A DNA stretch of 64,000 nucleotides. Origin: a virus. The notes below the pieces were generated by a model, which worked only from the letters and a program-made list of their open reading frames with translations, searched no databases and was not told where the DNA came from. Location: the IMG/VR virus record IMGVR_UViG_3300028844_004984; one strand, given 5' to 3'. Below are positions 45,233 to 62,698 of the stretch, piece by piece (position 1 is the stretch's first letter; the number at the start of each line of letters is the position of its first letter). The translations under genes were made by a program, and so were the position numbers.

Positions 45233-46015
45233 ATGGCAATTGATTTAAACGCTATCCGAAACCGTTTGGACAGTCTACAAACGAAAACTACAAAGACTGA
45301 TAATTTATGGAAGCCCAAACCAGGCAAGCAGCAGGTAAGAATCGTACCTTATGTACACAATCCATCAAATCCTTTTATTGAACTATTTTTCCACTACAAC
45401 TTTGGTGGTAAAAATATTCTATCACCACAAACACATGGTGAGGCAGACCCACTTATGGAGTTCGCTGACCAATTGAAATCAACTGGTGATAGAAACGATT
45501 GGAATCTTTCAAAACAACTTACTCCTAAAATGAGAACGTATGTTCCCGTTATTGTAAGAGGTGAAGAATCTGAAGGTGTTAAATTTTGGGGATTCGGTAA
45601 GACTGTGTATCAGGAGTTGCTGGCATTCTTTGCTGATCCTGACTATGGTGATTTGACCGACCCGACCAATGGTAGGGATGTAACTGTTGAGTTCAAAACC
45701 GCTAAAGAGTTAGGTAAGAACTATCCTGAAACTTACATCAGAGTTAAACCAAACCAAACAGCCATCACAGAAGATAAGAATGTTTTGGAATTGGTTAAAG
45801 ACCAGATTGAACTTCCAGGTATGTTTAAAAAATATTCCTACGATGAGATGAAAGGTTTGTTGGAGAAGTGGTTGGAAACTGGACAGGTAGCAGATTCTTC
45901 AGAAGAAGAAGAAACTCAACCAACGCAAACTACTCAAAGTGATGAACCAACTGCAGTATCAAATGCAACTACTGCTGATGTGAAAGACGCATTCGAAGAT
46001 TTATTTAATAGCTAA
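45233..46015 (+). CDS. Single-stranded DNA-binding protein (T4 gp32-like)
   Basis: LWKPKPG..VRIVP, GVKFWGFGKTVY, DLTDPTNGRD; acidic tail ending FEDLF. Confidence 0.85.
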   Translation: MAIDLNAIRNRLDSLQTKTTKTDNLWKPKPGKQQVRIVPYVHNPSNPFIELFFHYNFGGKNILSPQTHGEADPLMEFADQLKSTGDRNDWNLSKQLTPKMRTYVPVIVRGEESEGVKFWGFGKTVYQELLAFFADPDYGDLTDPTNGRDVTVEFKTAKELGKNYPETYIRVKPNQTAITEDKNVLELVKDQIELPGMFKKYSYDEMKGLLEKWLETGQVADSSEEEETQPTQTTQSDEPTAVSNATTADVKDAFEDLFNS

Positions 46016-49623: not shown

Positions 49624-50619
49624 ATGGCACAATTATTTACAGAAAGAATCGCATTTAAACCATTTGAATACCCAACCTACTACACCGAAGGGTGGTTGAA
49701 ACAAGCACAAGCATTTTGGTTACATACAGAAATCCCAATGCAGGGTGATTTAAAAGATTGGAATGAAAATCTAAATGAATCAGAAAAGAACTTGGTTGGT
49801 AATATCCTATTGGGGTTTGCACAAACTGAATGTGCCGTATCTGATTATTGGACAACAATGGTGACCAAATGGTTTCCTAAGCATGAAATCAAACAAATGG
49901 CGATGATGTTTGGTTCACAAGAAACAATACACGCCACAGCTTACTCATATCTAAACGAATCATTGGGTTTAGAAGATTTTGAGGCTTTCCTACACGAACC
50001 TGCAATTGCAGAAAAATTTGAATTCCTAACCGCTACTTCGGCAGATTGGACTCACGAGGATTTACAGAAAAATCCTATTGCGAGAAAAGAAGTAGCCCGT
50101 TCATTAGCGATATTCTCAGCATTTGCAGAAGGTGTATCTCTATATAGTAGTTTTGCAGTCCTGTATTCCTTTCAGATGAGAAATCTTCTGAAAGGAATCG
50201 GGCAGCAAATGAAATGGAGTGTAAGAGATGAATCGTTACATTCCAAAATGGGGTGTGAATTATTCAGAGAAATGTGTAATGAATATCCTGAACTTCACAG
50301 TGAAGTTAAAGATGATGTTCATCAGGCAGCAACATATATGGTAGAAATGGAACATAAGTTCATTGATATGATATTTGAAATGGGTGATTTAGAGAATCTC
50401 AAATCTAAAGACCTAAAAAACTTTATCTCAAAGCGGGGAAATGAAAAGTTAAAAGAATTGGGATACGATACAACCTTTGAGTACAACAAAAAATCAGCAG
50501 AAGAGTTAGATTGGTTCTATCATCTTACTGGTGGTACTACACATACTGACTTCTTCGCAGTAAGACCTACTGATTACTCTAAGGCGAATGAAGGTGAAGA
50601 TTTTAATGATATTTGGTAA
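49624..50619 (+). CDS. nrdB: Ribonucleotide reductase class I beta subunit
   Basis: ETIHATAY (radical Tyr), EGVSLYSSF, RDESLH, DFFA. Confidence 0.95.
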   Translation: MAQLFTERIAFKPFEYPTYYTEGWLKQAQAFWLHTEIPMQGDLKDWNENLNESEKNLVGNILLGFAQTECAVSDYWTTMVTKWFPKHEIKQMAMMFGSQETIHATAYSYLNESLGLEDFEAFLHEPAIAEKFEFLTATSADWTHEDLQKNPIARKEVARSLAIFSAFAEGVSLYSSFAVLYSFQMRNLLKGIGQQMKWSVRDESLHSKMGCELFREMCNEYPELHSEVKDDVHQAATYMVEMEHKFIDMIFEMGDLENLKSKDLKNFISKRGNEKLKELGYDTTFEYNKKSAEELDWFYHLTGGTTHTDFFAVRPTDYSKANEGEDFNDIW

Positions 50620-53112: not shown

Positions 53113-53316
53113 ATGGCCCTAAGAGGAGAATCCCACCCGGCACATAAACTTACTGAGGAGCAAGTAAACACTATCAGAAAACTATGGAAGATTGGGCATA
53201 GGAATGTTAGGGTTTTAGCAAGAAATCATAGCGTATCACCTGCGAATATTCGTAGAATTGTTAGGAATGAAACTTGGACACATTTGTTAGTGGGTGAGTT
53301 TGATAAATACCAATAA
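53113..53316 (+). CDS. Stand-alone HTH DNA-binding protein (HNH-endonuclease C-terminal type)
   Basis: GE.HPAHKLTEEQV..IR...LAR...VS...I..IV...TW. Confidence 0.65.
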   Translation: MALRGESHPAHKLTEEQVNTIRKLWKIGHRNVRVLARNHSVSPANIRRIVRNETWTHLLVGEFDKYQ

Positions 53317-54074
53317 TGAAGGAAGAGGGAAAGAACTATTGTGATGTATCAAAATTATCAATCCGACCGATTTCTAAATCGGTAGCAAAGGGTATCATTA
53401 TCAACAATCATTATAGTGGGTTGTGGACAAAGGTATCATACGCATTGGGTTTGTTCGTTGAGGATGGTTCACATCAGTTTTTTGATTCTACAGATAAGTT
53501 GATTGGGGTTGCGTGTTATGGCGACCCCATTGGTAGATTGACTGGGCAATCCATATCGGAAACGTTAGATAGGACTGAGGTTTTAGAATTAGTTCGATTG
53601 TTCGTTTTTGATGGGTATGGTTCAAATATCGAAAGTTGGTTCTTATCACAAACATTTGATTGGCTGAGAACAAACGTTTCAAAGATAAAAGCACTCATAT
53701 CCTACTCAGACCCAAAAGAAGGGCACGCTGGGACAATCTATCAAGCAACAAATTGGATTTATCAAGGTAACAAACTTAGATTCAATGATAGTTGGAGTTT
53801 TAAGTTTGAAGAAGATGGAAGATGGATACATGGTAAAACCATATTTCCACAATACAGAACAAACGACCCTAAGAAGATACAAGAGCAGGTAAATAAACCT
53901 TTTTGGATTCGAAAAGAACCAAGAAAACATAGATACGTTTACATATTAGCTAGGGGCGGTGAGCGTAGGAAACTACTGAAGAATTTGAAACACCCAACAT
54001 TTCCATATCCAAAGGGAAGTGAAGATGTTGAGATGGAAGTACATAAATTACAACCAATTGAAAGAAACGGATAA
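53316..54074 (+). CDS. Mom-like GNAT-fold DNA modification protein, paralog 1
   Basis: HYS, LIGVACYG, LELVRL, NIESWFL, ISYSD..GHAGTIYQATNWIYQG, KHRYV. Confidence 0.8.
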   Translation: MKEEGKNYCDVSKLSIRPISKSVAKGIIINNHYSGLWTKVSYALGLFVEDGSHQFFDSTDKLIGVACYGDPIGRLTGQSISETLDRTEVLELVRLFVFDGYGSNIESWFLSQTFDWLRTNVSKIKALISYSDPKEGHAGTIYQATNWIYQGNKLRFNDSWSFKFEEDGRWIHGKTIFPQYRTNDPKKIQEQVNKPFWIRKEPRKHRYVYILARGGERRKLLKNLKHPTFPYPKGSEDVEMEVHKLQPIERNG

Positions 54075-54858
54075 AATATATTGTGATGTATCCAAAGTGC
54101 ATATAGCACCAATCGCCAAATCGATTGCTAAGGATATCATCGTAAAGAAACACTACACTCACGCGTGGACTGCGTGTAGATATGCATTGGGCATCTACTA
54201 TAAAACTGATGGTGATTCATTTCAGTTTGGAGATGATAAACTCATTGGTTGCGCAATATATGGATTCCCAGTTGGAGCAAGAGCAGCAACCTCTGTATGT
54301 GAGGGATTAACTAAGGATAACGCATTGGAGTTGACCAGATTGTACATCGATGATGGGTATGGTTCGAATATCGAATCATATGCGATGGGACAAACATTCA
54401 AATGGTTGAAAGAAAACGATAAGAACATTAAGTTGTTGATATCGTATGCCGATGCGGGACAGGAACACTTAGGTAAGATTTATCAGGCAACTAATTGGAT
54501 TTATCAAGGGTTATCAACCGACATCGCACTAATGCCAAACTATGGTATCTCACTAACGAAAGACCCGTACAATTGGATTCATAGTAGAACGGTATATTCA
54601 CTTTGGGGTAGTTCAAATTTAGACCACCTTAAAAACGAAATTGGTAAAGAGGGGCATAGTGAATTTTGGAGGAGAATGGAGCCACCAAAACACAGATACA
54701 TCCAACTATTACCACAAAACAAAAAAGAGAAGAAAGATTTGATTAAACGGTTGAAGCATGAAATCAAACCATATCCAAAGAATACGGATGATTTTAATAC
54801 AGAGGTTGTGAATCATAAAACAACTTATGTAGCTGAGAGTACCGAAAGTTTTTGGTGA
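54058..54858 (+). CDS. Mom-like GNAT-fold DNA modification protein, paralog 2 (probable TTG start)
   Basis: N-terminus LKETDKIYCDVSK aligns with paralog 1 MKEEGKNYCDVSK; LELTRL, ISYADAGQEHLGKIYQATNWIYQG, KHRYI. Confidence 0.8.
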   Translation: MKETDKIYCDVSKVHIAPIAKSIAKDIIVKKHYTHAWTACRYALGIYYKTDGDSFQFGDDKLIGCAIYGFPVGARAATSVCEGLTKDNALELTRLYIDDGYGSNIESYAMGQTFKWLKENDKNIKLLISYADAGQEHLGKIYQATNWIYQGLSTDIALMPNYGISLTKDPYNWIHSRTVYSLWGSSNLDHLKNEIGKEGHSEFWRRMEPPKHRYIQLLPQNKKEKKDLIKRLKHEIKPYPKNTDDFNTEVVNHKTTYVAESTESFW

Positions 54859-55349
54859 TGAATAAAGTGTTAGTTCTAAATTCAGATTACACCCCATTGA
54901 ACGTAACAAATATGCGGCGTGGATTCATTCTTGTGATGAAAGGCAAGGCTGAAATTGTAAAAGAGGATGTGAACAAAATTGTAACTACGATTGGAGAGTT
55001 CGCTAAACCAATAATCATACGATTACTCAATTATATCGGATATCGGAATATGGGTATAAAGGTAAATCGTAAACGGATTATGAAGCGTGATGGTTTTGAG
55101 TGTGGATATTGTGGTTCGAAAAAGAATCTTACAATCGACCATATCATTCCTAAATCTCGTGGTGGTGGTAACACTTGGGATAATTTGGTGACTTGTTGTA
55201 GTAGATGTAACACAATCAAAGATGATAGGACTCCCAAAGAAGCAGATATGGTATTGAGAGTTAAACCACATCAACCATCTATATTTTCATCGGTAATTTC
55301 AGATGAAGTGGAAACTGAGTGGATTTTGTACAAAAAAAGTTTCCAATAA
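54858..55349 (+). CDS. HNH endonuclease (McrA/HNH_5-like)
   Basis: RD...CGYCG..LTIDHIIPKSRGG..W.NLVTCC..CN..K. Confidence 0.9.
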   Translation: MNKVLVLNSDYTPLNVTNMRRGFILVMKGKAEIVKEDVNKIVTTIGEFAKPIIIRLLNYIGYRNMGIKVNRKRIMKRDGFECGYCGSKKNLTIDHIIPKSRGGGNTWDNLVTCCSRCNTIKDDRTPKEADMVLRVKPHQPSIFSSVISDEVETEWILYKKSFQ

Positions 55350-55350
55350 A

Positions 55351-55382
55351 TTTGGTAGATTGAAAAACATTCCTTATATTAG
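55351..55382 (+). promoter_or_regulatory. Bacteroidota-type promoter
   Basis: TTTG-N20-TATATTAG. Confidence 0.65.
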
Positions 55383-55412
55383 TAGTATAAGAGATAAAAT
55401 GTATGTACCCGT

Positions 55413-56546
55413 ATGAACTTTTGGGATAGTGTAGATTATAACAATGCTAGAAAGGTGTTGGTGATACCTAATATCACTAACTCTTCTAATATTGAAAAAG
55501 ATTCGTTTATTGATGTGATACATAATCATATCAAAGGACTGGAGAAGTATGGTGAGTACTATTGGCATGTTTTAGTACCAACTGGAAATGTTACGAAGAA
55601 ACTAAACTTACCAAATGTGAAACAACATCAGATTGATATTCCAGGTGATATGATGAACCAACGTTCGTTCCCATCTGATAAGTTGATGAAACTTCTAAAG
55701 GATATCGATTATGATGTAATCTATTCACACCTGCCCGATTGGCCTCAAGTCGGTAGATACAAAAACGATATCAACACTAAAATAGTTGGGTATTGCCATT
55801 GGTGGGAAATGAAGTCCTGTAATGGTGTAGACCGTAGACCTGGTAAAGCAAAGTGGTTGTGGTTACCCATCGAACTATTAGGTATATCTCAGATGGAAAC
55901 CTGTTACTTAAATACACAAGACCAGAAGAATAGGGTGTTGGAAGAGGCGAGAGAAACATTCAATGAAGAGTTTGTTCAGAAGTTGGATGATATTCTCACT
56001 GTTTGGAACTTAGGATTGGAAGAATCCAAAATAGTATCCGAACCAAAATCAGAAAAGGAAAAGGTGATTGTATTCAACCACCGAGCAGCTGCATACAAGG
56101 GGTATCCTAAGTTTATGGAGTTGATGGAAGAATATCGTAAACAGCGACAGGATTTCAAAGTTTGGATTCCGCAATTAAATGGTAAACCACCATATGGGTG
56201 GGTAGATACTACCAAAGTACCAAAGCATGAGTACTATAAGAGATTGCAGGATTGTACCGTCGGTGTACAGATGAGGCAAACGAATTATGGTTGGAGCGTG
56301 AGTGGTACTGATTGTATGATGAATGGAACTCCAATGATTTGGCAGGAATCCGATTGTTATCACGAAATCGACCCGAATGGTATGTTCTTCAAATACAAAA
56401 AAGAATTCTTTGAGTATTTGGATAAGATGTTAGATGATGAACCATTCCGAAAAGAGCAAGAGTTAAAATCAGTAGAGAGGGCAAACGAGCTATCTAAGAA
56501 TGAGGGTAAAATGCTTGGAGAACTACACAAAAAGTTGTATATTTAA
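55413..56546 (+). CDS. GT-B glycosyltransferase, candidate DNA glycosyltransferase
   Basis: DYDVIYSH, VFNHR..YKGY, EYY..L, GWSVSGTDCMMNGTP; located next to PolB. Confidence 0.75.
   Translation: MNFWDSVDYNNARKVLVIPNITNSSNIEKDSFIDVIHNHIKGLEKYGEYYWHVLVPTGNVTKKLNLPNVKQHQIDIPGDMMNQRSFPSDKLMKLLKDIDYDVIYSHLPDWPQVGRYKNDINTKIVGYCHWWEMKSCNGVDRRPGKAKWLWLPIELLGISQMETCYLNTQDQKNRVLEEARETFNEEFVQKLDDILTVWNLGLEESKIVSEPKSEKEKVIVFNHRAAAYKGYPKFMELMEEYRKQRQDFKVWIPQLNGKPPYGWVDTTKVPKHEYYKRLQDCTVGVQMRQTNYGWSVSGTDCMMNGTPMIWQESDCYHEIDPNGMFFKYKKEFFEYLDKMLDDEPFRKEQELKSVERANELSKNEGKMLGELHKKLYI
56514..56545 (+). promoter_or_regulatory. Bacteroidota-type promoter; likely leaderless transcript
   Basis: CTTG-N20-TATATTTA; ATG 4 nt downstream. 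Confidence 0.65.
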
Positions 56547-56549
56547 GGT

Positions 56550-59066
56550 ATGTATCAAAACGCTTATTACGAAAAAGAGGGTGGTATCATCCATTGCTGG
56601 GATGATGAAAAAGGTTACTTTACCAAAAAGTATCGTAACTATGGTTATGTTAGAGATGGTAATGGTTCTTACGAATCAATCTATGGGGAACGGTTGAAGA
56701 AGATTAACTTTTGGAAAAACGAAGATAATCTAAAACTTTATGAATCGGATGTAAATGAAATGACCCGTTTCTTAATCGATGAATATGGTGATTCAGACGA
56801 GGTATCCACTGGTCATACTGTACTAACCTTTGATATTGAGGTAGAGATGAATAGTGGACTGCCCGATACAGATAAAGCAGAGAATACTATGACTTCTGTA
56901 GCATTCCACGATTCAGCAACAAACGATTATTATGCTTATGTACTAAGTGAGGGTGAAGAGATAAACAAAACTATCAAAGGGGCTAAAGTCCGTTCCTTTC
57001 GTAGTGAAGAAGATATGTTGATAGCATTTGTAAATGCTTGGGAAGAGATTTCACCGACTATCATTACGGGATGGAACATTGACTTCTTTGATGTTACATA
57101 TTTGTACAATCGATTAAAGCGGGTACTTGGGACATCAACAGCAAATAGGCTATCCCCAATCAGAAAAGTACATTGGAACAAATATCGTAAACGTTACATC
57201 ATCGCAGGTGTATCTGCATTGGATTACATCGCATTATTTAAGAACTTTACATATACGGAATATCCCAACTATCGCTTGGATACTATCGCTAAATTAGAAT
57301 TAGGTAGAGGGAAGATTGAGTACGAAGGAAACTTAGACCAATTATTCAGAGATGATATTGAGAAGTTTGTTGAATATAACTTAGTTGATGTTGAGTTGGT
57401 GGTAGATATGGATAAGAAACTACAATTCATCGATTTGGCTAGAGCAATATGCCATGCGGGTCATGTGTTCTATGAAGATTTCTTATTCTCATCGAAATGG
57501 TTAGAGGGAGCAATTCTCACATTCCTTAGACGGAGTGGTAGGGTAGCTCCGAACAAACCACAGCGGATGTTTAAAAATGCTGATGGTTCTGATGGGGAAG
57601 GTAAGTTTATAGGTGCATATGTAAAACAACCAAAGCCCGGCCTTTACAAATGGGTATACGATTTGGATTTAACATCACTATACCCATCAATCATTATGAG
57701 TATCAATATCTCACCTGAAACTAAGATTGGTAAGGTGAAGAACTACTCCGCTGAAGAATCTATGAAGGGAAATATTGAATCATATTCTATTATAGATAAT
57801 AATGGTAGTGAATCAAAGCCCGTATCAAAAGAACACTTTACCAACTTTATTGAACAACAAAAGCTATCAATAGCATCAAATGGTGTGTTGTATTCACAGA
57901 ATAGGGTTGGTATCATACCTGAGATTCTTAACGTGTGGTTTGATAAGAGAGTAGAGTACAAAGACCTGATGAAAAAATATGGTAAAGAGGGTAATGATGA
58001 ACTTTATAAGTTCTACTCTCAGCGCCAGTTGGTACAAAAAATTATGTTGAATTCCCTTTACGGAGTATTGGGATTACCATCATTCAGATTCTACGATGTT
58101 GATAACGCAGAAGCAGTAACACTTACAGGTCAGACTGTAATTAAAACAACTGAGATGATTGCCAATCAATACTATAGTAAGAACATTGGTGAAACAAAAG
58201 ATTACAACATCTATGTTGATACTGATTCTGTATTCTATGAAGCAGCACCATTGGTAAAGGCTAGGAATCCTAATATTGATGTAACATCTGATAAAGAAAT
58301 GATTCCAGCTATTCTATCAGTTGCTAAAGAGGTTGAGGACCATATCAATAAAGTATATGATTCAATGGCATTGAAAATGTTCAATATTAATTCACATAGA
58401 TTTGATATTAAGCAAGAAACTATCGCTAAGGGTGGGTTTTGGGTATCTAAGAAAAGATACGCTCAATGGATTATCAACGATAACACTGTAGATTGTGATA
58501 AGTTGGATGTGAAAGGATTGGATGTGAAACGTTCATCATTCCCAACTTACTTCAAAGAAGTGATGAGTACTGTGTTGATGGATATCCTAAAGGATGAGAA
58601 CAAAGATAAAATTGATGAGTATATTCTTAGGAAGAAAGATGAGATGAAAACTACCAACTTTATCGATATAGCAAAGAATTCAGCAGTTAAAGGTATGAGT
58701 AAGTATACATTTAAGAATCAAGCACTGGGTGAGTTTATGAAAGGAACACCAGCGCATGTTAAAGCAGCACTTACTTACAATCAACTATTGAAATATTATA
58801 ATGCAGCATTTAAATTTGAACCAATGAAAGATGGTGATAAGATTAAGTGGGTGTATTTGAAACCTAATCCATTAGGATTAGACTCCGTTGGGTTGACGGG
58901 ATATAACGACCCGAAAGAGATTTTGGATTTGGTAGAACAGCATATAGATTATGAGCTAATTTGGACAAAAGAATTAGAGAATAAGTTAGATGATTTCTAC
59001 AAAGCAATGGGGTGGGAAAAGCCAAATCCGAATCTAGCAAAAGCATCACAATTTTTTGGATTTTAA
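56550..59066 (+). CDS. Family B DNA polymerase (T4 gp43-like)
   Basis: FDIE, GWNIDFFD, YNLVDV, DLTSLYPS, KIMLNSLYG, YVDTDS, KKRYA. Confidence 0.97.
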   Translation: MYQNAYYEKEGGIIHCWDDEKGYFTKKYRNYGYVRDGNGSYESIYGERLKKINFWKNEDNLKLYESDVNEMTRFLIDEYGDSDEVSTGHTVLTFDIEVEMNSGLPDTDKAENTMTSVAFHDSATNDYYAYVLSEGEEINKTIKGAKVRSFRSEEDMLIAFVNAWEEISPTIITGWNIDFFDVTYLYNRLKRVLGTSTANRLSPIRKVHWNKYRKRYIIAGVSALDYIALFKNFTYTEYPNYRLDTIAKLELGRGKIEYEGNLDQLFRDDIEKFVEYNLVDVELVVDMDKKLQFIDLARAICHAGHVFYEDFLFSSKWLEGAILTFLRRSGRVAPNKPQRMFKNADGSDGEGKFIGAYVKQPKPGLYKWVYDLDLTSLYPSIIMSINISPETKIGKVKNYSAEESMKGNIESYSIIDNNGSESKPVSKEHFTNFIEQQKLSIASNGVLYSQNRVGIIPEILNVWFDKRVEYKDLMKKYGKEGNDELYKFYSQRQLVQKIMLNSLYGVLGLPSFRFYDVDNAEAVTLTGQTVIKTTEMIANQYYSKNIGETKDYNIYVDTDSVFYEAAPLVKARNPNIDVTSDKEMIPAILSVAKEVEDHINKVYDSMALKMFNINSHRFDIKQETIAKGGFWVSKKRYAQWIINDNTVDCDKLDVKGLDVKRSSFPTYFKEVMSTVLMDILKDENKDKIDEYILRKKDEMKTTNFIDIAKNSAVKGMSKYTFKNQALGEFMKGTPAHVKAALTYNQLLKYYNAAFKFEPMKDGDKIKWVYLKPNPLGLDSVGLTGYNDPKEILDLVEQHIDYELIWTKELENKLDDFYKAMGWEKPNPNLAKASQFFGF

Positions 59067-59098
59067 TTTGGATATTCCAAAATAAATTCGTATATTTA
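59067..59098 (+). promoter_or_regulatory. Bacteroidota-type promoter
   Basis: TTTG-N20-TATATTTA. Confidence 0.7.
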
Positions 59099-59129
59099 AG
59101 ACCAATAAACAATAAATAATTAATTTCAT

Positions 59130-59825
59130 ATGAAAAAAGCAAGTATTGAAAGTTTCATTAACCGATACAATCTCGGTGGTGAAGTAGAATCGGTAAAGAT
59201 TACATCTACTGATTCGGAGATGAAGGTAAGTTTTATCTCAGATGATAAAACTTTGTTAGGAGAGGTAACCTCTAAAGAGGGTGATTTTCCCAATGGTGAG
59301 TTTGGTGTTTACACAACTTCTCAGTTAAAAGCACTTTTGGGTGTATTAGAATCTAATGTGGAGGTTGACTCTACTGAATCTTACATCAAGTTTTCAGATA
59401 AGGGTACATCGGTTAATTATATGCTGGCAGACCTTTCTGTGATTCCAGTTGTTCCTGATTTGAAGCAAGTACCACCTTTCAACTCAGAAGTTACTTTGAA
59501 CGATGAGTTTACATCTAAGTTTATCAAATCAAAAGGAGCGCTGAGTGAATCAGATACATTTACATTTAGTTGTATTGGTGATAAGGGTGAGGTTGTTTTA
59601 GGATATTCCACAATTAACACTAACCGAATCTCAATCTCAGTAGAATGTAAGTGTGATGGGGATGTACAACCAATCTCATTTTCAGCTAAGTATCTGAAAG
59701 AAATCCTAAATGCTAACAGAGCCTCTAAATCTGCTACATTAAAAATTTCATCGCAGGGGCTTTCTTACATTGAATTTGAAACAGATACCATCACATCAAA
59801 ATACTATTTGGTAGAGATTAAATAA
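59130..59825 (+). CDS. Sliding clamp (T4 gp45-like)
   Basis: Size, FGVY...L..LL, FSAKYL, LKISSQG, YYLV; between PolB and clamp loader. Confidence 0.8.
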   Translation: MKKASIESFINRYNLGGEVESVKITSTDSEMKVSFISDDKTLLGEVTSKEGDFPNGEFGVYTTSQLKALLGVLESNVEVDSTESYIKFSDKGTSVNYMLADLSVIPVVPDLKQVPPFNSEVTLNDEFTSKFIKSKGALSESDTFTFSCIGDKGEVVLGYSTINTNRISISVECKCDGDVQPISFSAKYLKEILNANRASKSATLKISSQGLSYIEFETDTITSKYYLVEIK

Positions 59826-61039
59826 TGAGTATGAACTTTTGGGATACAGAACCAGCTAAACCAATCTTTGACTTTGAAACTCAAAAGAGGGAGTTAATCG
59901 AAAATATGGATTATCTATCTTCGATGACAGTTGAAGAACAAACACTTTACAAAAAGTGGGTTGAGTTACAAGAGCCCTCTATGATTAGGGATAAATCGCA
60001 CATTGCGGAACTATACCCAACACAGTGGGCTCCGGCTGATATTAACAATTTGGAACAAACCATTTCGGAGATTGAAGCGTTAGAACCTTATGTTGAGATT
60101 GTAGAAGATGCTAAGGATTCTACTAAATGGGCATATCTCAGAAGGATGATTCATACAATGGGGTTTACCGCCAATCCTGGTCGAAACGTTAAGATTAATG
60201 TTAAAGATAGGGTTACTGGAAAGCTTTTAGGGCAGATATCACTAGCATCTGATGTAACCTCTATGAAGGTTAGAGATGACTATATTGGGTGGAGTAAAGA
60301 TAATAAGTTCGTAGATAAAAAACTCAACCATACTACAATAGCATCTACAATTGTGTGTACTCAGCCACTTGGATTTAACTTCTTAGGTGGTAAGTTAGTT
60401 GCTATGATGACCACTGTGCCTGAAGTGAGGGAGTTTTGGAAAGATAAATATGGCCAGACCCTTATAGCAGTTGGGACTACATCTCTGTATGGAATTCACT
60501 CTCAGTACAATGGTATTCCTCACTTCAAAACATTAGGTGAATCGGCCGGAAAGATTTCAATAAAACCAGATGATAAGTACTACGAACCTTGGCATCAATG
60601 GATTAAAGAAAACAGAGCAGATTGGTACGAAACTGCAATTACGAATGAAAGAATCCGTAATGGTAAAAGTATGGGTGTAGCAAGTGGGCCTGTAAGTGGT
60701 ATCAAACAAAAGATTCTTGGGCAGATATTCAAAGAATGTGGTATCAAACAATCAGATTATCATCATGGGTTTAAAAGAGGTGTATATCTCGCTATGATGT
60801 ATGAGAATGGGCCGGAGTTCCTTAAAGGTGAAATTGGTGAAGATGAGCTAAAGATGAAGCAGAAGTTCGAAGAGGGTGTGGATTACATCAGTAGATGGTG
60901 GAAGAAAAAGGCAATAAAACGATACACCAAACTACACTCTGAAGGTAGATTGAAGCCAGAGCATTTGTTCTATATCGATGCGATTGGTATGAGTTGGGAA
61001 GATATGAAAAGTAAGTATTTGAAAGAAGTTGGTAGATAA
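59825..61039 (+). CDS. DUF4338/Druantia DruA-like protein
   Basis: NPGRN, LLGQISLASD..VRD.YIGW, QPLGFNFLGGKL, TTSLYG..SQY, LGESAG. Confidence 0.7.
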   Translation: MSMNFWDTEPAKPIFDFETQKRELIENMDYLSSMTVEEQTLYKKWVELQEPSMIRDKSHIAELYPTQWAPADINNLEQTISEIEALEPYVEIVEDAKDSTKWAYLRRMIHTMGFTANPGRNVKINVKDRVTGKLLGQISLASDVTSMKVRDDYIGWSKDNKFVDKKLNHTTIASTIVCTQPLGFNFLGGKLVAMMTTVPEVREFWKDKYGQTLIAVGTTSLYGIHSQYNGIPHFKTLGESAGKISIKPDDKYYEPWHQWIKENRADWYETAITNERIRNGKSMGVASGPVSGIKQKILGQIFKECGIKQSDYHHGFKRGVYLAMMYENGPEFLKGEIGEDELKMKQKFEEGVDYISRWWKKKAIKRYTKLHSEGRLKPEHLFYIDAIGMSWEDMKSKYLKEVGR

Positions 61040-61971
61040 TGAATAACACAGAAAACACACTTTGGGTTGAGAAGTACAGACCCGATACATTGGAAGGGTA
61101 TGTTGGAAACGAACATATCCTTGAGAAAGTAAAGATTTACATTGAGAATGAGGATGTACCTCACTTGCTACTCTATGGTGTGGCGGGTACTGGTAAGACT
61201 ACCCTCGCTAAAATCATTACCAATCAGATTGATTGTGATGTGATGTACATCAACGCTTCGGATGAAAACAACGTAGATACAGTTAGGGATAAGATTAGAG
61301 GATTCGCATCATCGATGGGATTCCGTAAGTGGAAAGTGATTATTTTGGATGAGAGCGATTACCTAACTCCGAACGCACAGGCGGCACTTCGTAATCTAAT
61401 GGAAACGTTCTCCAAAACAACACGATTCATTTTGACGTGTAACTATGTTGAAAAAATCATCGACCCAATTCAGAGTAGATGCCAAACGTTTGGTATTACA
61501 CCACCATCTAAGAAAGAGGTGGCGCTGCGTTTGAAAGAGATTTTGGATTCTGAGAATGTATCATATGAGATGCAGGATTTAGCTATTTTGGTAAATAGTG
61601 GATATCCTGATATTCGTAGAGTTCTGAACGCAGGACAACGGCAGGTTATAAAGGGTGAATTGAAGATTGATAAAACATCAACGATTCAAGCGAATTATAT
61701 GGATGAGGTATTGAATGTACTTAAATCTGATGGTAATGTAAAAGAGGTGTTCCTAAAGAGTAGGCAGATTATCGCAGATTCAAAAGTTAAGGACTTCACA
61801 CCATTCTACAGATTTTTGTACGATAATGTAGATGATTTCGCAGCTGGAAAAGTGGGTAACACAATAATCAAAATTGCAGATGCTCAATACAAAGATGCAT
61901 CAGTAGTGGATAAAGAAATCAACATCGTAGCGATGTTATTGGAAATTTTAATTGATATCAAAGGAAAATAA
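61039..61971 (+). CDS. Clamp loader AAA+ subunit (T4 gp44/RFC-like)
   Basis: LWVEKYRP, GVAGTGKTT, INASD, ILDESD, SRC. Confidence 0.95.
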   Translation: MNNTENTLWVEKYRPDTLEGYVGNEHILEKVKIYIENEDVPHLLLYGVAGTGKTTLAKIITNQIDCDVMYINASDENNVDTVRDKIRGFASSMGFRKWKVIILDESDYLTPNAQAALRNLMETFSKTTRFILTCNYVEKIIDPIQSRCQTFGITPPSKKEVALRLKEILDSENVSYEMQDLAILVNSGYPDIRRVLNAGQRQVIKGELKIDKTSTIQANYMDEVLNVLKSDGNVKEVFLKSRQIIADSKVKDFTPFYRFLYDNVDDFAAGKVGNTIIKIADAQYKDASVVDKEINIVAMLLEILIDIKGK

Positions 61972-61973
61972 TT

Positions 61974-62243
61974 ATGGCAAAAGGAAAGGGAAAATCAAAA
62001 ATAGTTGGAATGGGACAACCAACACAACAAGCACCACAAATGCAGTTAGACCCAACAAAGTTACCAACGGTACATTGTGAGAATTGTGATTCTATTTTTT
62101 GGGAAGAAGTGACAATGTTCAAAGAAGTTCCAGCGGTTCAATCACCGAATGGGCAGAAATCAATGTTACCAATTCCTGTAGTTAGATGTGCAGAGTGTGG
62201 GCATGTATCGGAAAAGTTTTTACCTAAAGAGTTATTACCTTAA
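61974..62243 (+). CDS. Small zinc-ribbon protein
   Basis: CENC...CAECGH. Confidence 0.7.
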   Translation: MAKGKGKSKIVGMGQPTQQAPQMQLDPTKLPTVHCENCDSIFWEEVTMFKEVPAVQSPNGQKSMLPIPVVRCAECGHVSEKFLPKELLP

Positions 62244-62698
62244 TGGCAAAAAAGAAAAGTGATAACACTGTAAAGGCTAAGAGTATCTTCCAACATCTTA
62301 GTGGTATAAAGGAGAAAAAAGATTCTTGGGAATCTCTATCTGAGATGGATAAGAAATCATTTACTCCATTTATCATAAATCGTTGGTTAAGTATGAACTT
62401 GGACTTACTACCTATCATAAATGTACTACAGAAGTACACAATCGGCTTGTTATCCGCCAGAGATGTATACAAAGTGTATTTGGATTTTCTACCAAAGCAA
62501 AAAACATTTGATAAGTACATCAAAGGTAAGAAAGATGGTAAGTACAACAAAGAGTTACTACAACACCTATCAACTTGGTATGGTGTATCACATAGAGAAG
62601 TAATTGATTATTTGGATATACTACCAAAGGATGAGGTGATTTCGATTCTAATGAAGTATGGTATGACCGATAAGGAAGCAAAAAAGTTATTGAAATGA
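62243..62698 (+). CDS. Clamp loader small subunit (T4 gp62-like)
   Basis: FTPFIINRWLSM, YIK, YGVS..E...YL; synteny. Confidence 0.7.
   Translation: MAKKKSDNTVKAKSIFQHLSGIKEKKDSWESLSEMDKKSFTPFIINRWLSMNLDLLPIINVLQKYTIGLLSARDVYKVYLDFLPKQKTFDKYIKGKKDGKYNKELLQHLSTWYGVSHREVIDYLDILPKDEVISILMKYGMTDKEAKKLLK

What the first reader, a model, noticed from the sequence alone, without database searches (positions are those of the whole stretch)
53316..59845. Shared [NQS]F[FW] motif on PolB and four modification enzymes: possible clamp-binding peptide
Seen: PolB ends ASQFFGF. The glycosyltransferase begins MNFWD and the DruA-like protein begins MSMNFWD, an identical pentapeptide in unrelated folds. Mom paralog 2 ends ESFW, and Mom paralog 1 has an internal HQFFD. 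Known: T4 gp43 binds gp45 through a C-terminal aromatic peptide (SLDFLF), and T4 alpha-glucosyltransferase has been reported to interact with gp45. Inference: the modifiers ride the sliding clamp and modify nascent DNA during replication.
Basis: partly seen in the sequence, partly recalled or inferred. Interest (0 to 1): 0.8.

Follow-up and report, generated by a model that had tools for sequence, protein, structure and literature searches.

The report
Clamp-docking tags on phage DNA modifiers
In this uncultured T4-like phage, three unrelated DNA-modification-type enzymes carry the same tiny, floppy Phe-Trp tag at a chain end, resembling the DNA polymerase's clamp-binding tail; it most likely hooks them onto the phage's sliding clamp so that new DNA is modified as it is copied, though binding is still unproven.

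Summary
PolB ends QFFGF. The GT and the DruA-like protein both start MNFWD; DruA probably starts at its second ATG, 59831. Mom2 ends ESFW, and Mom1 has an internal HQFFD.

This is not chance: 0.04 window proteins are expected to have FW at positions 3-4, and 2 are seen (P about 8e-4).

- **Conservation:** in about 40-55 non-identical relatives (uncultured T4-like phages) the aromatic pair is near-invariant, next to a freely varying residue and variable linkers.
- **Exposure:** AF2 leaves both N-terminal tips disordered.
- **Other carriers in relatives:** the clamp-loader large subunit, N6/N4 methylases, a TAGT glycosyltransferase and further Mom and DruA paralogues.
- **Absence outside T4-like phages:** a homologous MTase-GT-Mom cassette in a 69% GC contig that shows no T4-type genes has no tags.
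- **Match to the polymerase:** in a distant relative the tags copy that phage's own PolB tail.
- **Complex prediction (clamp trimer + DruA 1-30):** weak support only (ipSAE 0.58, best control 0.03).

Best reading (about 0.62): a PIP-like clamp-docking tag that couples DNA modifiers to the replisome. Binding is unproven. Mom1's loop is the weakest part of the case.

The scan has already reported the same phenomenon in related phage genomes on other DNA.

The parts
53316..54074 (+). Mom paralogue 1 (252 aa). It has no terminal tag. The internal loop H-Q-F-F-D lies at nt 53472-53486.
   Evidence: Pfam Mom E 2.6e-43. H-x-F-F is invariant in 27/27 orthologues that have the loop, and it lies inside the Mom domain. 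The loop FF and the terminal tag are mutually exclusive among Mom subfamilies.
54058..54858 (+). Mom paralogue 2 (probable TTG start at 54058; the longest ORF starts at the GTG at 54019). A variable tail of about 25 aa ends in the tag E-S-F-W (nt 54844-54855).
   Evidence: Pfam Mom E 7.8e-45. All 40 distinct tails in relatives end [FY]-W after a highly variable linker.
55413..56546 (+). GT-B/GT4-fold glycosyltransferase (377 aa) with the N-terminal tag M-N-F-W-D (nt 55413-55427).
   Evidence: Foldseek: MshA 3c4q, E 7e-12. F3 and W4 are each kept in 53/54 unique homologues, and position 2 has entropy 2.3 bits. In the AF2 model residues 1-4 have pLDDT <50 and the first strand starts at residue 13.
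56550..59066 (+). Family B DNA polymerase (838 aa) with the C-terminal tail ending Q-F-F-G-F (nt 59049-59063).
   Evidence: Pfam and PHROG. Nearly all full-length relatives end x-F-F-x-F; one carries an extra terminal G. The thumb aligns with RB69 gp43 763-886, which leaves the last 19 aa at the position of the RB69 clamp-binding tail (PMC3012046).
59130..59825 (+). gp45-like sliding clamp (231 aa), the proposed docking partner.
   Evidence: PHROG 223, E 3.5e-12; weak PCNA_C hit. It lies between PolB and the clamp loader. The trimer has pLDDT about 90 in the complex runs. It has no sequence match in the PDB.
59831..61039 (+). DruA-domain protein (402 aa from the second ATG; the alternative ATG at 59825 overlaps the clamp stop). 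N-terminal tag M-N-F-W-D (nt 59831-59845).
   Evidence: Pfam DruA E 5e-22. F and W are 43/43 and D is 40/43 in unique homologues, and the residue before F has entropy 2.5 bits. In the AF2 model residues 1-7 have pLDDT <50 and the first helix starts at residue 15. The fold match to GNAT is weak.
61039..61971 (+). Clamp loader large subunit (gp44/RFC-like). It is untagged in this window but begins M-[SAG]-F-F in divergent relatives.
   Evidence: PHROG 168, E 1.9e-82. N-termini of relatives.
62243..62698 (+). Clamp loader small subunit (gp62-like).
   Evidence: PHROG 225, E 1.3e-17; Pfam Phage_clamp_A.

Best explanation
The terminal aromatic pair followed by a negative charge is a short linear docking motif of the PIP-like kind. 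It takes two forms: an N-terminal M-x-F-W-[DE] on the GT and the DruA-like protein, and a C-terminal x-[FY]-W-COOH on Mom2. It sits on a flexible tip or tail and inserts into the partner-binding pocket of the phage's own gp45-like trimeric clamp. This is the same site used by the PolB C-terminal tail (x-F-F-x-F-COOH).

The clamp, loaded at primer ends by the gp44/gp62-like loader, would then act as a tool-belt. It would bring the glycosyltransferase, the Mom-type acyl/aminoacyl-transferase-like enzyme and the DruA-like (GNAT-like) enzyme to freshly made duplex DNA, so that the genome is modified at or just behind the fork.

Shown: the motifs, their conservation, their predicted exposure, and their restriction to polymerase, clamp loader and modification enzymes.

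Inferred: the clamp as the partner, the shared pocket, and the timing of modification.
For: 1. Conservation typical of a linear motif.
- The FW pair is (near-)invariant in 54 GT and 43 DruA-like unique sequences.
- The adjacent residue takes at least 7 different amino acids, and the following residue is D or E.
- The Mom2 tail is unalignable apart from the terminal [FY]W.

2. Predicted exposure. AF2 pLDDT is <50 for GT residues 1-4 and DruA-like residues 1-7, before the first secondary-structure element.

3. Specificity.
- In an unbiased clustering of all ORFs in 80 related loci, only PolB, GT, DruA-like, Mom2, the clamp loader large subunit and one small unknown family have a conserved terminal aromatic pair. 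Clamp, RNR, thioredoxin and about 30 other families have none.
- In five related genomes the DNA pattern for M-x-F-W-[DE] hits 13 times against 1 for the control. Ten of the 13 are the GT and DruA starts.

4. Known clamp clients carry it.
- The PolB tail is positionally homologous to the RB69/T4 gp43 clamp tail.
- The clamp loader large subunit begins M-[SAG]-F-F in 12 divergent relatives.

5. More modifiers carry it in relatives:
- an N6/N4 MTase ending K-F-F-S-F, the same five residues that end the PolB tail in its closest relatives (this phage's own tail was not read)
- a second MTase ending Y-W
- a TAGT glycosyltransferase ending K-F-W
- Mom paralogues ending W-F-G or K-F-F
- short DruA proteins beginning M-S-F-F-D

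6. The tag is modular.
- A GT homologue next to a gp32 gene has no N-terminal tip and instead ends D-F-F.
- An MTase-GT-Mom-Mom-Mom cassette in a 69% GC contig showing no T4-type genes lacks every tip and tail.

7. In a distant T4-like phage (L130) PolB ends Q-F-F-E-I-I. Its DruA-like protein has S-Q-F-F-D near the N-terminus and its GT has D-F-F.

8. Complex prediction, clamp x3 plus DruA-like 1-30. The verdict was weak support.
- ipSAE 0.58 (runs 0.58, 0.58, 0.62); best of 3 controls 0.03.
- The runs agree in at least 88% of contacts, and the partner's pLDDT is at least 57.
- The mark was reached by 58 of 80 solved complexes and 2 of 110 mismatched pairs.
- At 0.60 or under, only 7 of those 80 solved complexes and both passing mismatches fall. 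Such a pass is more often wrong than right unless the guess was already likely.
- No interface was reported.

9. Precedents.
- T4 uses a C-terminal peptide on gp43 and an N-terminal peptide on RNase H to bind gp45 (PMC3012046).
- Basic residues of the RB69 pocket contact acidic groups of the peptide (same paper).
- T4 alpha-GT pulls down gp45 (PMC13216743).
Against: - No binding measurement exists. The only complex prediction is a weak pass, gives no interface, and tested one peptide only.
- The peptides do not fit the canonical PIP consensus Q-x-x-[ILM]-x-x-[FY]-[FY].
- The modifiers use F-W whereas this phage's PolB uses F-F-x-F, so identity of the binding site is assumed.
- The window's own clamp loader has no tag.
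- Mom1 has no terminal tag.
- A related phage (L134) has a divergent GT (34% identical) at the same position without any tip. Its DruA-like protein, PolB and clamp loader large subunit are tagged, and an ORF fragment holding the Mom2 C-terminal part ends in the tag. In L132 a DruA-like protein lacks the tip.
- About a third of all columns are invariant in the close homologue sets, so invariance alone is not exceptional.
- Terminal aromatic tails serve other partnerships too. The RNR small subunit in this window ends D-F-N-D-I-W, the R1-binding type of tail.
Confidence: 0.62

Rival explanations
1. The tag is a docking motif, but for another shared partner. Candidates are another replisome hub (helicase, gp32-type SSB, PolB itself) or the modifiers themselves. 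In the second case the tags would assemble a multi-enzyme modification complex rather than bind the clamp.
For: The conservation, exposure and modularity show a linear motif but do not name its partner. The modifiers use F-W whereas PolB uses F-F-x-F. The complex prediction is only a weak pass with no interface. The gp32-like SSB and other replisome genes lie in the same cluster.
Against: PolB and the clamp loader carry the same kind of tag, and the protein they are both known to bind in T4-type replisomes is the clamp (PMC3012046). The PolB tail is at the position of the RB69 clamp tail. In L130 the modifiers' tags copy the PolB tail. The control that replaced the clamp scored 0.03 against 0.58.
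Confidence: 0.17
2. The aromatic pairs have separate, enzyme-internal roles, such as capping the fold, substrate or base stacking, or stability. They would resemble each other only by convergence.
For: Mom1's H-x-F-F lies inside the folded Mom domain next to an invariant His. About a third of columns are invariant in these families anyway. GT D8 and Y9 just after the tag are also fairly conserved.
Against: The tips are predicted disordered and precede the first fold element. Homologues in a contig showing no T4-type genes, and some distant homologues, work without them. The tag switches from the N- to the C-terminus in a GT homologue. The same tag occurs on at least five unrelated folds and on no other family in the loci.
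Confidence: 0.1
3. The identical 16-nt starts of the GT and DruA genes (ATGAACTTTTGGGATA) are an RNA-level element, for example a translational operator of the RegA kind, rather than a peptide signal.
For: The two starts in the window are identical over 16 nt. TTTTGGGA is kept in most relatives.
Against: The codon before F varies freely, both synonymously and non-synonymously. TTC replaces TTT in 5 of 47 GT genes. GAA, GAT and GAC alternate. The upstream sequences share nothing. F-W-[DE] forces TT[TC]-TGG-GA[N], so the shared bases follow from the peptide. The tag also occurs at C-termini (Mom2, MTase, TAGT), where no initiation element can act.
Confidence: 0.04

Closest known systems
T4/RB69 gp45 clamp-interaction peptides (gp43 C-terminal tail, RNase H N-terminal peptide, gp55 and gp33 tails)
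   Same: Short hydrophobic/aromatic peptides at the extreme C- or N-terminus of clamp clients in a T4-type replisome, with acidic groups near the aromatic residues. The window's PolB tail (K-A-S-Q-F-F-G-F) resembles the T4 gp43 tail (K-A-S-L-D-F-L-F-G) and sits at the same position (PMC3012046).
   Different: The consensus here is an adjacent F-W or F-F pair, not L-D-F-L-[FY]. The clients are DNA-modification enzymes rather than replication or transcription factors. The clamp is too diverged to match T4/RB69 gp45 by sequence in the PDB. Binding is untested.
T4 alpha-glucosyltransferase binding to gp45 (Sommer et al. 2004; re-tested in PMC13216743)
   Same: A phage DNA glycosyltransferase that physically associates with the phage sliding clamp, proposed to couple DNA modification to replication.
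   Different: The window's GT has no Pfam match to the T4 alpha-GT family; only weak GT4-type matches appear. T4 alpha-GT has no terminal aromatic pair, and no binding peptide for it is given in the passages read here. In this phage the same tag is shared by several enzyme families.
Eukaryotic and archaeal PIP-box clients of PCNA, including DNMT1, DNA ligase I and UNG2 (from general knowledge; reviews PMC6881253 and PMC7225939 listed but not read)
   Same: A disordered short motif with two adjacent aromatic residues docks many different DNA enzymes on a trimeric clamp. It can lie at the N-terminus and recruits a DNA-modifying enzyme (a maintenance methylase) to the fork.
   Different: The canonical Q-x-x-h-x-x-a-a spacing is absent. 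The phage tags are only 4-5 residues long and lie at the very chain end.
Bacterial beta-clamp-binding motif (Q-L-[SD]-L-F and variants; N-terminal in Hda), from general knowledge
   Same: A five-residue hydrophobic peptide, at either terminus or internal, shared by many clamp clients.
   Different: It binds a different clamp (dimeric DnaN) and has a different consensus. No DNA-modification enzymes are established clients.

Membership tests
Clamp-interaction peptide (PIP-like / T4 gp45-binding motif) | Short peptide in a flexible terminal or loop region, outside the folded domain | tested here: met
   AF2 pLDDT <50 for GT residues 1-4 and DruA-like residues 1-7. Mom2's tag follows a variable tail of about 25 aa beyond the Pfam Mom domain. 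This is not met for Mom1, whose motif is inside the domain.
Clamp-interaction peptide (PIP-like / T4 gp45-binding motif) | Conserved pair of aromatic/hydrophobic residues, with variable flanks | tested here: met
   F-W in 53/54 GT and 43/43 DruA-like sequences; all Mom2 tails end [FY]-W; the adjacent position has entropy 2.3-2.5 bits.
Clamp-interaction peptide (PIP-like / T4 gp45-binding motif) | Canonical PIP consensus Q-x-x-[ILM]-x-x-[FY]-[FY] | tested here: not met
   The N-terminal tags have only one residue before the aromatic pair. The Mom2 tail has no conserved Q or aliphatic position. Only PolB has a Q directly before F-F.
Clamp-interaction peptide (PIP-like / T4 gp45-binding motif) | The same kind of peptide is present on proven classes of clamp client in the same phage lineage | tested here: met
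   PolB C-terminal tail at the RB69 tail position; clamp loader large subunit beginning M-x-F-F in relatives.
Clamp-interaction peptide (PIP-like / T4 gp45-binding motif) | Physical binding to the hydrophobic pocket of the clamp | tested here: inconclusive
   Prediction only, with a verdict of weak support. ipSAE was 0.58 against a best control of 0.03. Contact agreement was at least 88% and partner pLDDT at least 57. No interface was given. The mark was reached by 58/80 solved complexes and 2/110 mismatches. At 0.60 or under fall only 7 of the solved complexes and both passing mismatches. A binding experiment is needed.
Mom family (PF25680) | Full-length match to the Mom profile above the gathering score | tested here: met
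   Mom1 148.5 bits and Mom2 153.5 bits against a cut-off of 27.1.
DruA (PF14236) of Druantia type I | DruA domain match | tested here: met
   78.8 bits against a cut-off of 27, covering residues 74-335.
DruA (PF14236) of Druantia type I | Operon context with DruB-DruE (the defence system) | tested here: not met
   The gene sits between the phage clamp and clamp loader genes, and no DruE-like helicase is in the window region. It is a DruA-domain protein, not a Druantia system.
GT-B glycosyltransferase (GT4-like) | Two-Rossmann GT-B fold; sequence match to GT4 families | tested here: met
   The fold matches: MshA 3c4q at E 7e-12 with TM 0.69, and many GT4 enzymes. The Pfam GT4 matches are below the gathering score (21.7 against 28.5 bits).
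T4 alpha-glucosyltransferase family (PF11440) | Sequence membership | tested here: not met
   No PF11440 match in the Pfam scan of the GT. No tblastn match to any of 50,697 phage records.

The most novel reading that the evidence does not exclude
A minimal 'aromatic pair plus negative charge' chain-end tag is the general address label of the clamp tool-belt in a large, abundant clade of uncultured aquatic T4-like phages.

- The negative charge is a D/E side chain after an N-terminal F-W, or the terminal carboxylate after a C-terminal F-W.
- The tag has been grafted repeatedly onto at least five unrelated enzyme folds: Mom, GT-B, TAGT, N6/N4 methylase and DruA/GNAT-like.
- In Mom1 it is grafted as a loop insertion.
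- As a result a whole multi-step DNA hypermodification pathway would work co-replicatively on the three pockets of one clamp.

As a corollary, the DruA domain, so far of unknown function in Druantia defence, would be a DNA-directed modifying enzyme.
Probability: 0.35. Interest if true: 0.75.

Novelty: new variant of a known kind. Interest (0 to 1): 0.6.

Why it matters
Phage DNA hypermodification is a main counter-defence against restriction and CRISPR. How post-replicative modifiers keep pace with a fast replisome is largely unknown. The only precedent is the T4 alpha-GT/gp45 pull-down, and the passages read here map no binding peptide for it.

A defined, portable tag of 4-5 residues shared by several modifier families would:
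- make the replication-coupling hypothesis directly testable with peptides and point mutants
- give a sequence signature for finding clamp clients, and hence new DNA-modifying enzymes such as DruA-domain proteins, in uncultured phages
- suggest how three clamp pockets are shared between the polymerase and the modifiers

Tried and rejected
**Searches that found nothing**
- The GT has no tblastn match in 50,697 cultured-phage records, and the locus has no DNA match beyond PolB fragments. The nearest cultured PolB is Microcystis phage Mel-JY01 at 48%, whose replisome cluster has no annotated Mom, GT or DruA gene.
- No whole genome is held for the window, so a genome-wide census of tags in this phage itself was not possible.
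- The clamp profile found no relative among PDB sequences, so pocket residues could not be mapped by alignment.
- A profile comparison of DruA-like against Mom showed no relationship. The DruA-like fold search gave only weak GNAT matches (E 0.03).

**Scans that were too noisy or incomplete**
- A scan for F-W-stop in two related genomes was as frequent as its control. Of the 30 places fetched, only Mom2 and one unknown 149-aa protein end a long ORF that way.
- Three extra genome hits to the N-terminal DNA pattern were two non-ORFs and one small membrane-like protein.
- One contig look-up (P0124) was not run because the service was busy.
- The Druantia literature search gave nothing on the function of DruA.

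**Readings rejected**
- Chance.
- An RNA-level operator.

Full report
**What is there**

The window is part of an uncultured T4-like phage. All genes lie on the + strand and GC is about 36%.

From 45 kb onward it holds a replication block, in this order:
- gp32-like SSB, UvsX/RecA, RNase H/FEN, DnaB-like helicase, RNR, thioredoxin, a MazG-like protein
- Mom1 (53316-54074) and Mom2 (probable TTG start 54058, ending 54858)
- an HNH endonuclease (54852-55349)
- a GT-B glycosyltransferase (55413-56546)
- PolB (56550-59066)
- a gp45-like clamp (59130-59825)
- a DruA-domain protein (59825 or 59831, ending 61039)
- the gp44-like loader subunit (61039-61971), a zinc-ribbon protein, the gp62-like loader subunit (62243-62698)
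- an Nmad1-like protein and a dCMP deaminase

The nearest cultured PolB is Microcystis phage Mel-JY01 at 48%. Its cluster runs thioredoxin, two genes, PolB, clamp, loader, with no annotated Mom, GT or DruA gene. The modification genes therefore look like insertions into a conserved replisome cluster.

**The observation**

In most relatives the DruA-like ORF begins directly with M-x-F-W. The second ATG (59831) is therefore the likelier start, and both the GT and the DruA-like protein then begin MNFWD.

Within the window the pattern is not chance. F[FW] occurs at 0.0021 per position. That predicts 0.77 proteins with the pair within three residues of an end, and 6 are seen (P 1.5e-4). It predicts 0.04 proteins with FW at positions 3-4, and 2 are seen (P 8e-4).

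**Conservation**

A scan of IMG/VR with the GT gave 174 relatives. Eighty loci were kept, with 6-kb flanks that mostly include the whole Mom-to-clamp-loader block.

- **GT** (54 non-identical sequences, 68-96% identical): F3 and W4 are each kept in 53. Position 5 is D or E in 52. Position 2 takes N, S, T, Q, E, K or I (entropy 2.3 bits).
- **DruA-like** (43 non-identical sequences): F and W are invariant, D follows in 40, and the residue before F has entropy 2.5 bits.
- **Mom2:** all 40 distinct C-termini end [FY]-W, after about 25 residues that barely align.
- **PolB:** nearly all full-length sequences end x-F-F-x-F, down to 45% identity, while the preceding 12 residues differ between subclades. 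One ends with an extra G.

About a third of all columns are invariant in these close sets. The telling feature is the contrast with the neighbouring positions, not invariance as such.

The tag also persists in GT homologues at 56% and 42% identity (P0122, P0124).

**Peptide or RNA?**

Across relatives:
- the codon before F changes freely
- TTC replaces TTT in 5 of 47 GT genes
- GAA, GAT and GAC alternate
- the upstream sequences are unrelated

The shared bases are those forced by F-W-[DE]. C-terminal copies of the tag cannot be initiation signals. The signal is the peptide.

**Exposure**

AF2 models built on these alignments are confident overall (pLDDT 84 for both). Both leave the tips unplaced. 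GT residues 1-4 have pLDDT below 50 and the first strand starts at residue 13. DruA-like residues 1-7 are below 50 and the first helix starts at residue 15.

The GT is a GT-B/GT4 fold (MshA, E 7e-12). The DruA-like protein gives only weak GNAT matches and is unrelated to Mom at profile level. The identical tag therefore sits on different folds.

**Who else carries it**

All ORFs of the 80 loci were clustered without prior choice. Only PolB, GT, DruA-like, the Mom2 half of the Mom cluster, the clamp loader large subunit (38% of distinct N-termini) and one small lysine-rich family have a conserved terminal aromatic pair. The clamp, RNR, thioredoxin and about 30 other families have none.

The clamp loader finding matters because that protein must bind the clamp. 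In 12 divergent relatives it begins M-[SAG]-F-F followed by acidic residues.

Relatives also encode further tagged modifiers:
- an N6/N4 methylase ending K-F-F-S-F, the same five residues that end the PolB tail in its closest relatives (this phage's own tail was not read)
- a second methylase ending Y-W
- a TET-associated glycosyltransferase (PF20691) ending K-F-W
- Mom paralogues ending W-F-G or K-F-F
- short DruA proteins beginning M-S-F-F-D

In five related genomes (160-266 kb) the DNA pattern for M-x-F-W-[DE] occurs 13 times against once for the reversed control. Ten of the 13 are the GT and DruA starts.

**Modularity**

- Distant GT homologues often start directly at the first strand.
- One such homologue lies next to a gp32 gene and instead ends D-F-F.
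- One lies in a 69% GC phage contig, in a cassette MTase-GT-Mom-Mom-Mom, and there is no tip or tail on any of the five proteins. The Moms stop right after the P-Y-P that precedes the Mom2 tail.
- In a more distant T4-like phage with the same gene order (L130), PolB ends Q-F-F-E-I-I. The DruA-like protein has S-Q-F-F-D near its start, and the GT has D-F-F. There the modifiers copy that phage's own polymerase tail.

There are counter-examples.
- In L134 a divergent GT (34% identical) at the same position has no tip. Its DruA-like protein, PolB and clamp loader large subunit are tagged, and an ORF fragment holding the Mom2 C-terminal part ends in the tag.
- In L132 a DruA-like protein lacks the tip.

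**Mom1**

Mom1 has no terminal tag. Its H-x-F-F is invariant in 27 of 27 orthologues that have the loop, but it lies within the Mom domain.

Aligning all Mom-like proteins shows a complementary pattern:
- Subfamilies with the 12-residue loop insertion containing H-x-F-F (Mom1 and a third paralogue) have no terminal pair.
- Subfamilies with a terminal pair (Mom2 and two others) lack the loop FF.
- The three Moms of the 69% GC contig have neither.

This fits an internal version of the same tag, but it is the weakest part of the case. A catalytic or structural role for the His-containing loop is equally possible.

**Why the clamp**

- The last 19 residues of PolB lie beyond the region that aligns with RB69 gp43 763-886. 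That is where RB69 and T4 carry their clamp-binding tail (PMC3012046).
- T4 gp43 ends K-A-S-L-D-F-L-F-G, against K-A-S-Q-F-F-G-F here.
- T4 also uses an N-terminal peptide, on RNase H, to bind gp45.
- The RB69 pocket has two basic residues that contact acidic groups of the peptide. This would fit the D/E after the N-terminal F-W and the free carboxylate after the C-terminal F-W. That point is inference.
- T4 alpha-GT co-purifies with gp45 while beta-GT does not (PMC13216743).

The single complex job tested the clamp trimer with DruA-like residues 1-30, using my own alignments. The verdict was weak support.
- ipSAE was 0.58 (runs 0.58, 0.58, 0.62), and the best of three controls was 0.03.
- The runs agree in at least 88% of contacts, and the partner's pLDDT is at least 57.
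- The mark was reached by 58 of 80 solved complexes and 2 of 110 mismatched pairs.
- At 0.60 or under fall only 7 of those solved complexes and both passing mismatches.
- No interface was reported.

The clamp has no sequence relative in the PDB, so recall of a solved complex is less likely. This adds only modestly to the comparative evidence.

**Verdict**

A portable docking tag is well supported. The clamp as its receptor is likely (about 0.62) but unproven. Co-replicative modification is inference.
- The kind of mechanism is known (clamp tool-belt, PIP-like peptides, T4 alpha-GT/gp45, DNMT1/PCNA).
- What is new is the minimal F-W-acid chain-end form and its repeated grafting onto several DNA-modifier folds in a widespread uncultured phage clade.
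- Follow-ups of this scan have already described the same phenomenon in related phage genomes on other DNA. Those notes were not used as evidence.

Noticed in passing
61039-61971; relatives e.g. L073:7935-8912, L046:11804-12784, L134:14887-15834: The clamp loader large subunit has no tag in the window. In 12 divergent relatives it has an N-terminal extension beginning M-[SAG]-F-F followed by acidic residues. T4 gp62 begins M-S-L-F-K-D-D.
   Followed up: partly
L127:190-3983: A 69% GC phage-like contig carries a cassette of N6/N4 MTase, a GT homologue of the window's GT, and three Mom genes. The GT+Mom(+MTase) set is therefore a recurrent module outside T4-like phages, there without any terminal tags.
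   Followed up: partly
54852-55349: The HNH endonuclease between Mom2 and the GT is found only in the window and its two closest relatives (L001, L002). It is probably a mobile homing-endonuclease insertion, and it has no tag.
   Followed up: partly
L012, L039, L045, L047, L042, L035 (PolB region): PolB is split into two ORFs with an extra insert in several relatives, which looks intein-like. The C-terminal fragment keeps the x-F-F-x-F tail.
   Followed up: no
P0127-P0169: Most distant GT homologues (30-40% identical, about 450 aa) carry an extra C-terminal domain of about 80 aa with a conserved G-W-G...Y-R motif. This domain is absent from the window's GT.
   Followed up: no
L076:1399-1665, L068:260-511, L018:3176-3538, L048:3871-4164: A small lysine-rich protein family (82-121 aa, no Pfam or PHROG match) lies just upstream of Mom2 in some relatives. 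In several members it ends K-[KNG]-Y-W or F-W-A, making it a possible further tag carrier.
   Followed up: partly
L124:1504-1950 (- strand): A 149-aa basic protein of unknown family in a related 187-kb genome ends D-F-W. It has no Pfam or PHROG match.
   Followed up: partly
49624-50619 and 45233-46015: The RNR small subunit ends D-F-N-D-I-W, the type of tail that binds the large subunit. The gp32-like SSB ends E-D-L-F-N-S. Acidic-aromatic tails in this phage also serve other partnerships.
   Followed up: no
54019-54075 and 59823-59833: Start-codon notes. Mom2 most likely starts at the TTG at 54058, overlapping the end of Mom1 by 17 nt. The first ATG of the DruA-like ORF overlaps the clamp stop (TAATG), but relatives favour the second ATG.
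   Followed up: yes
L134:5629-6694: In relative L134 the Mom2 reading frame is interrupted. The C-terminal part, ending in the tag, is a separate ORF downstream of a 52-aa ORF, which suggests an insertion or assembly break.
   Followed up: no
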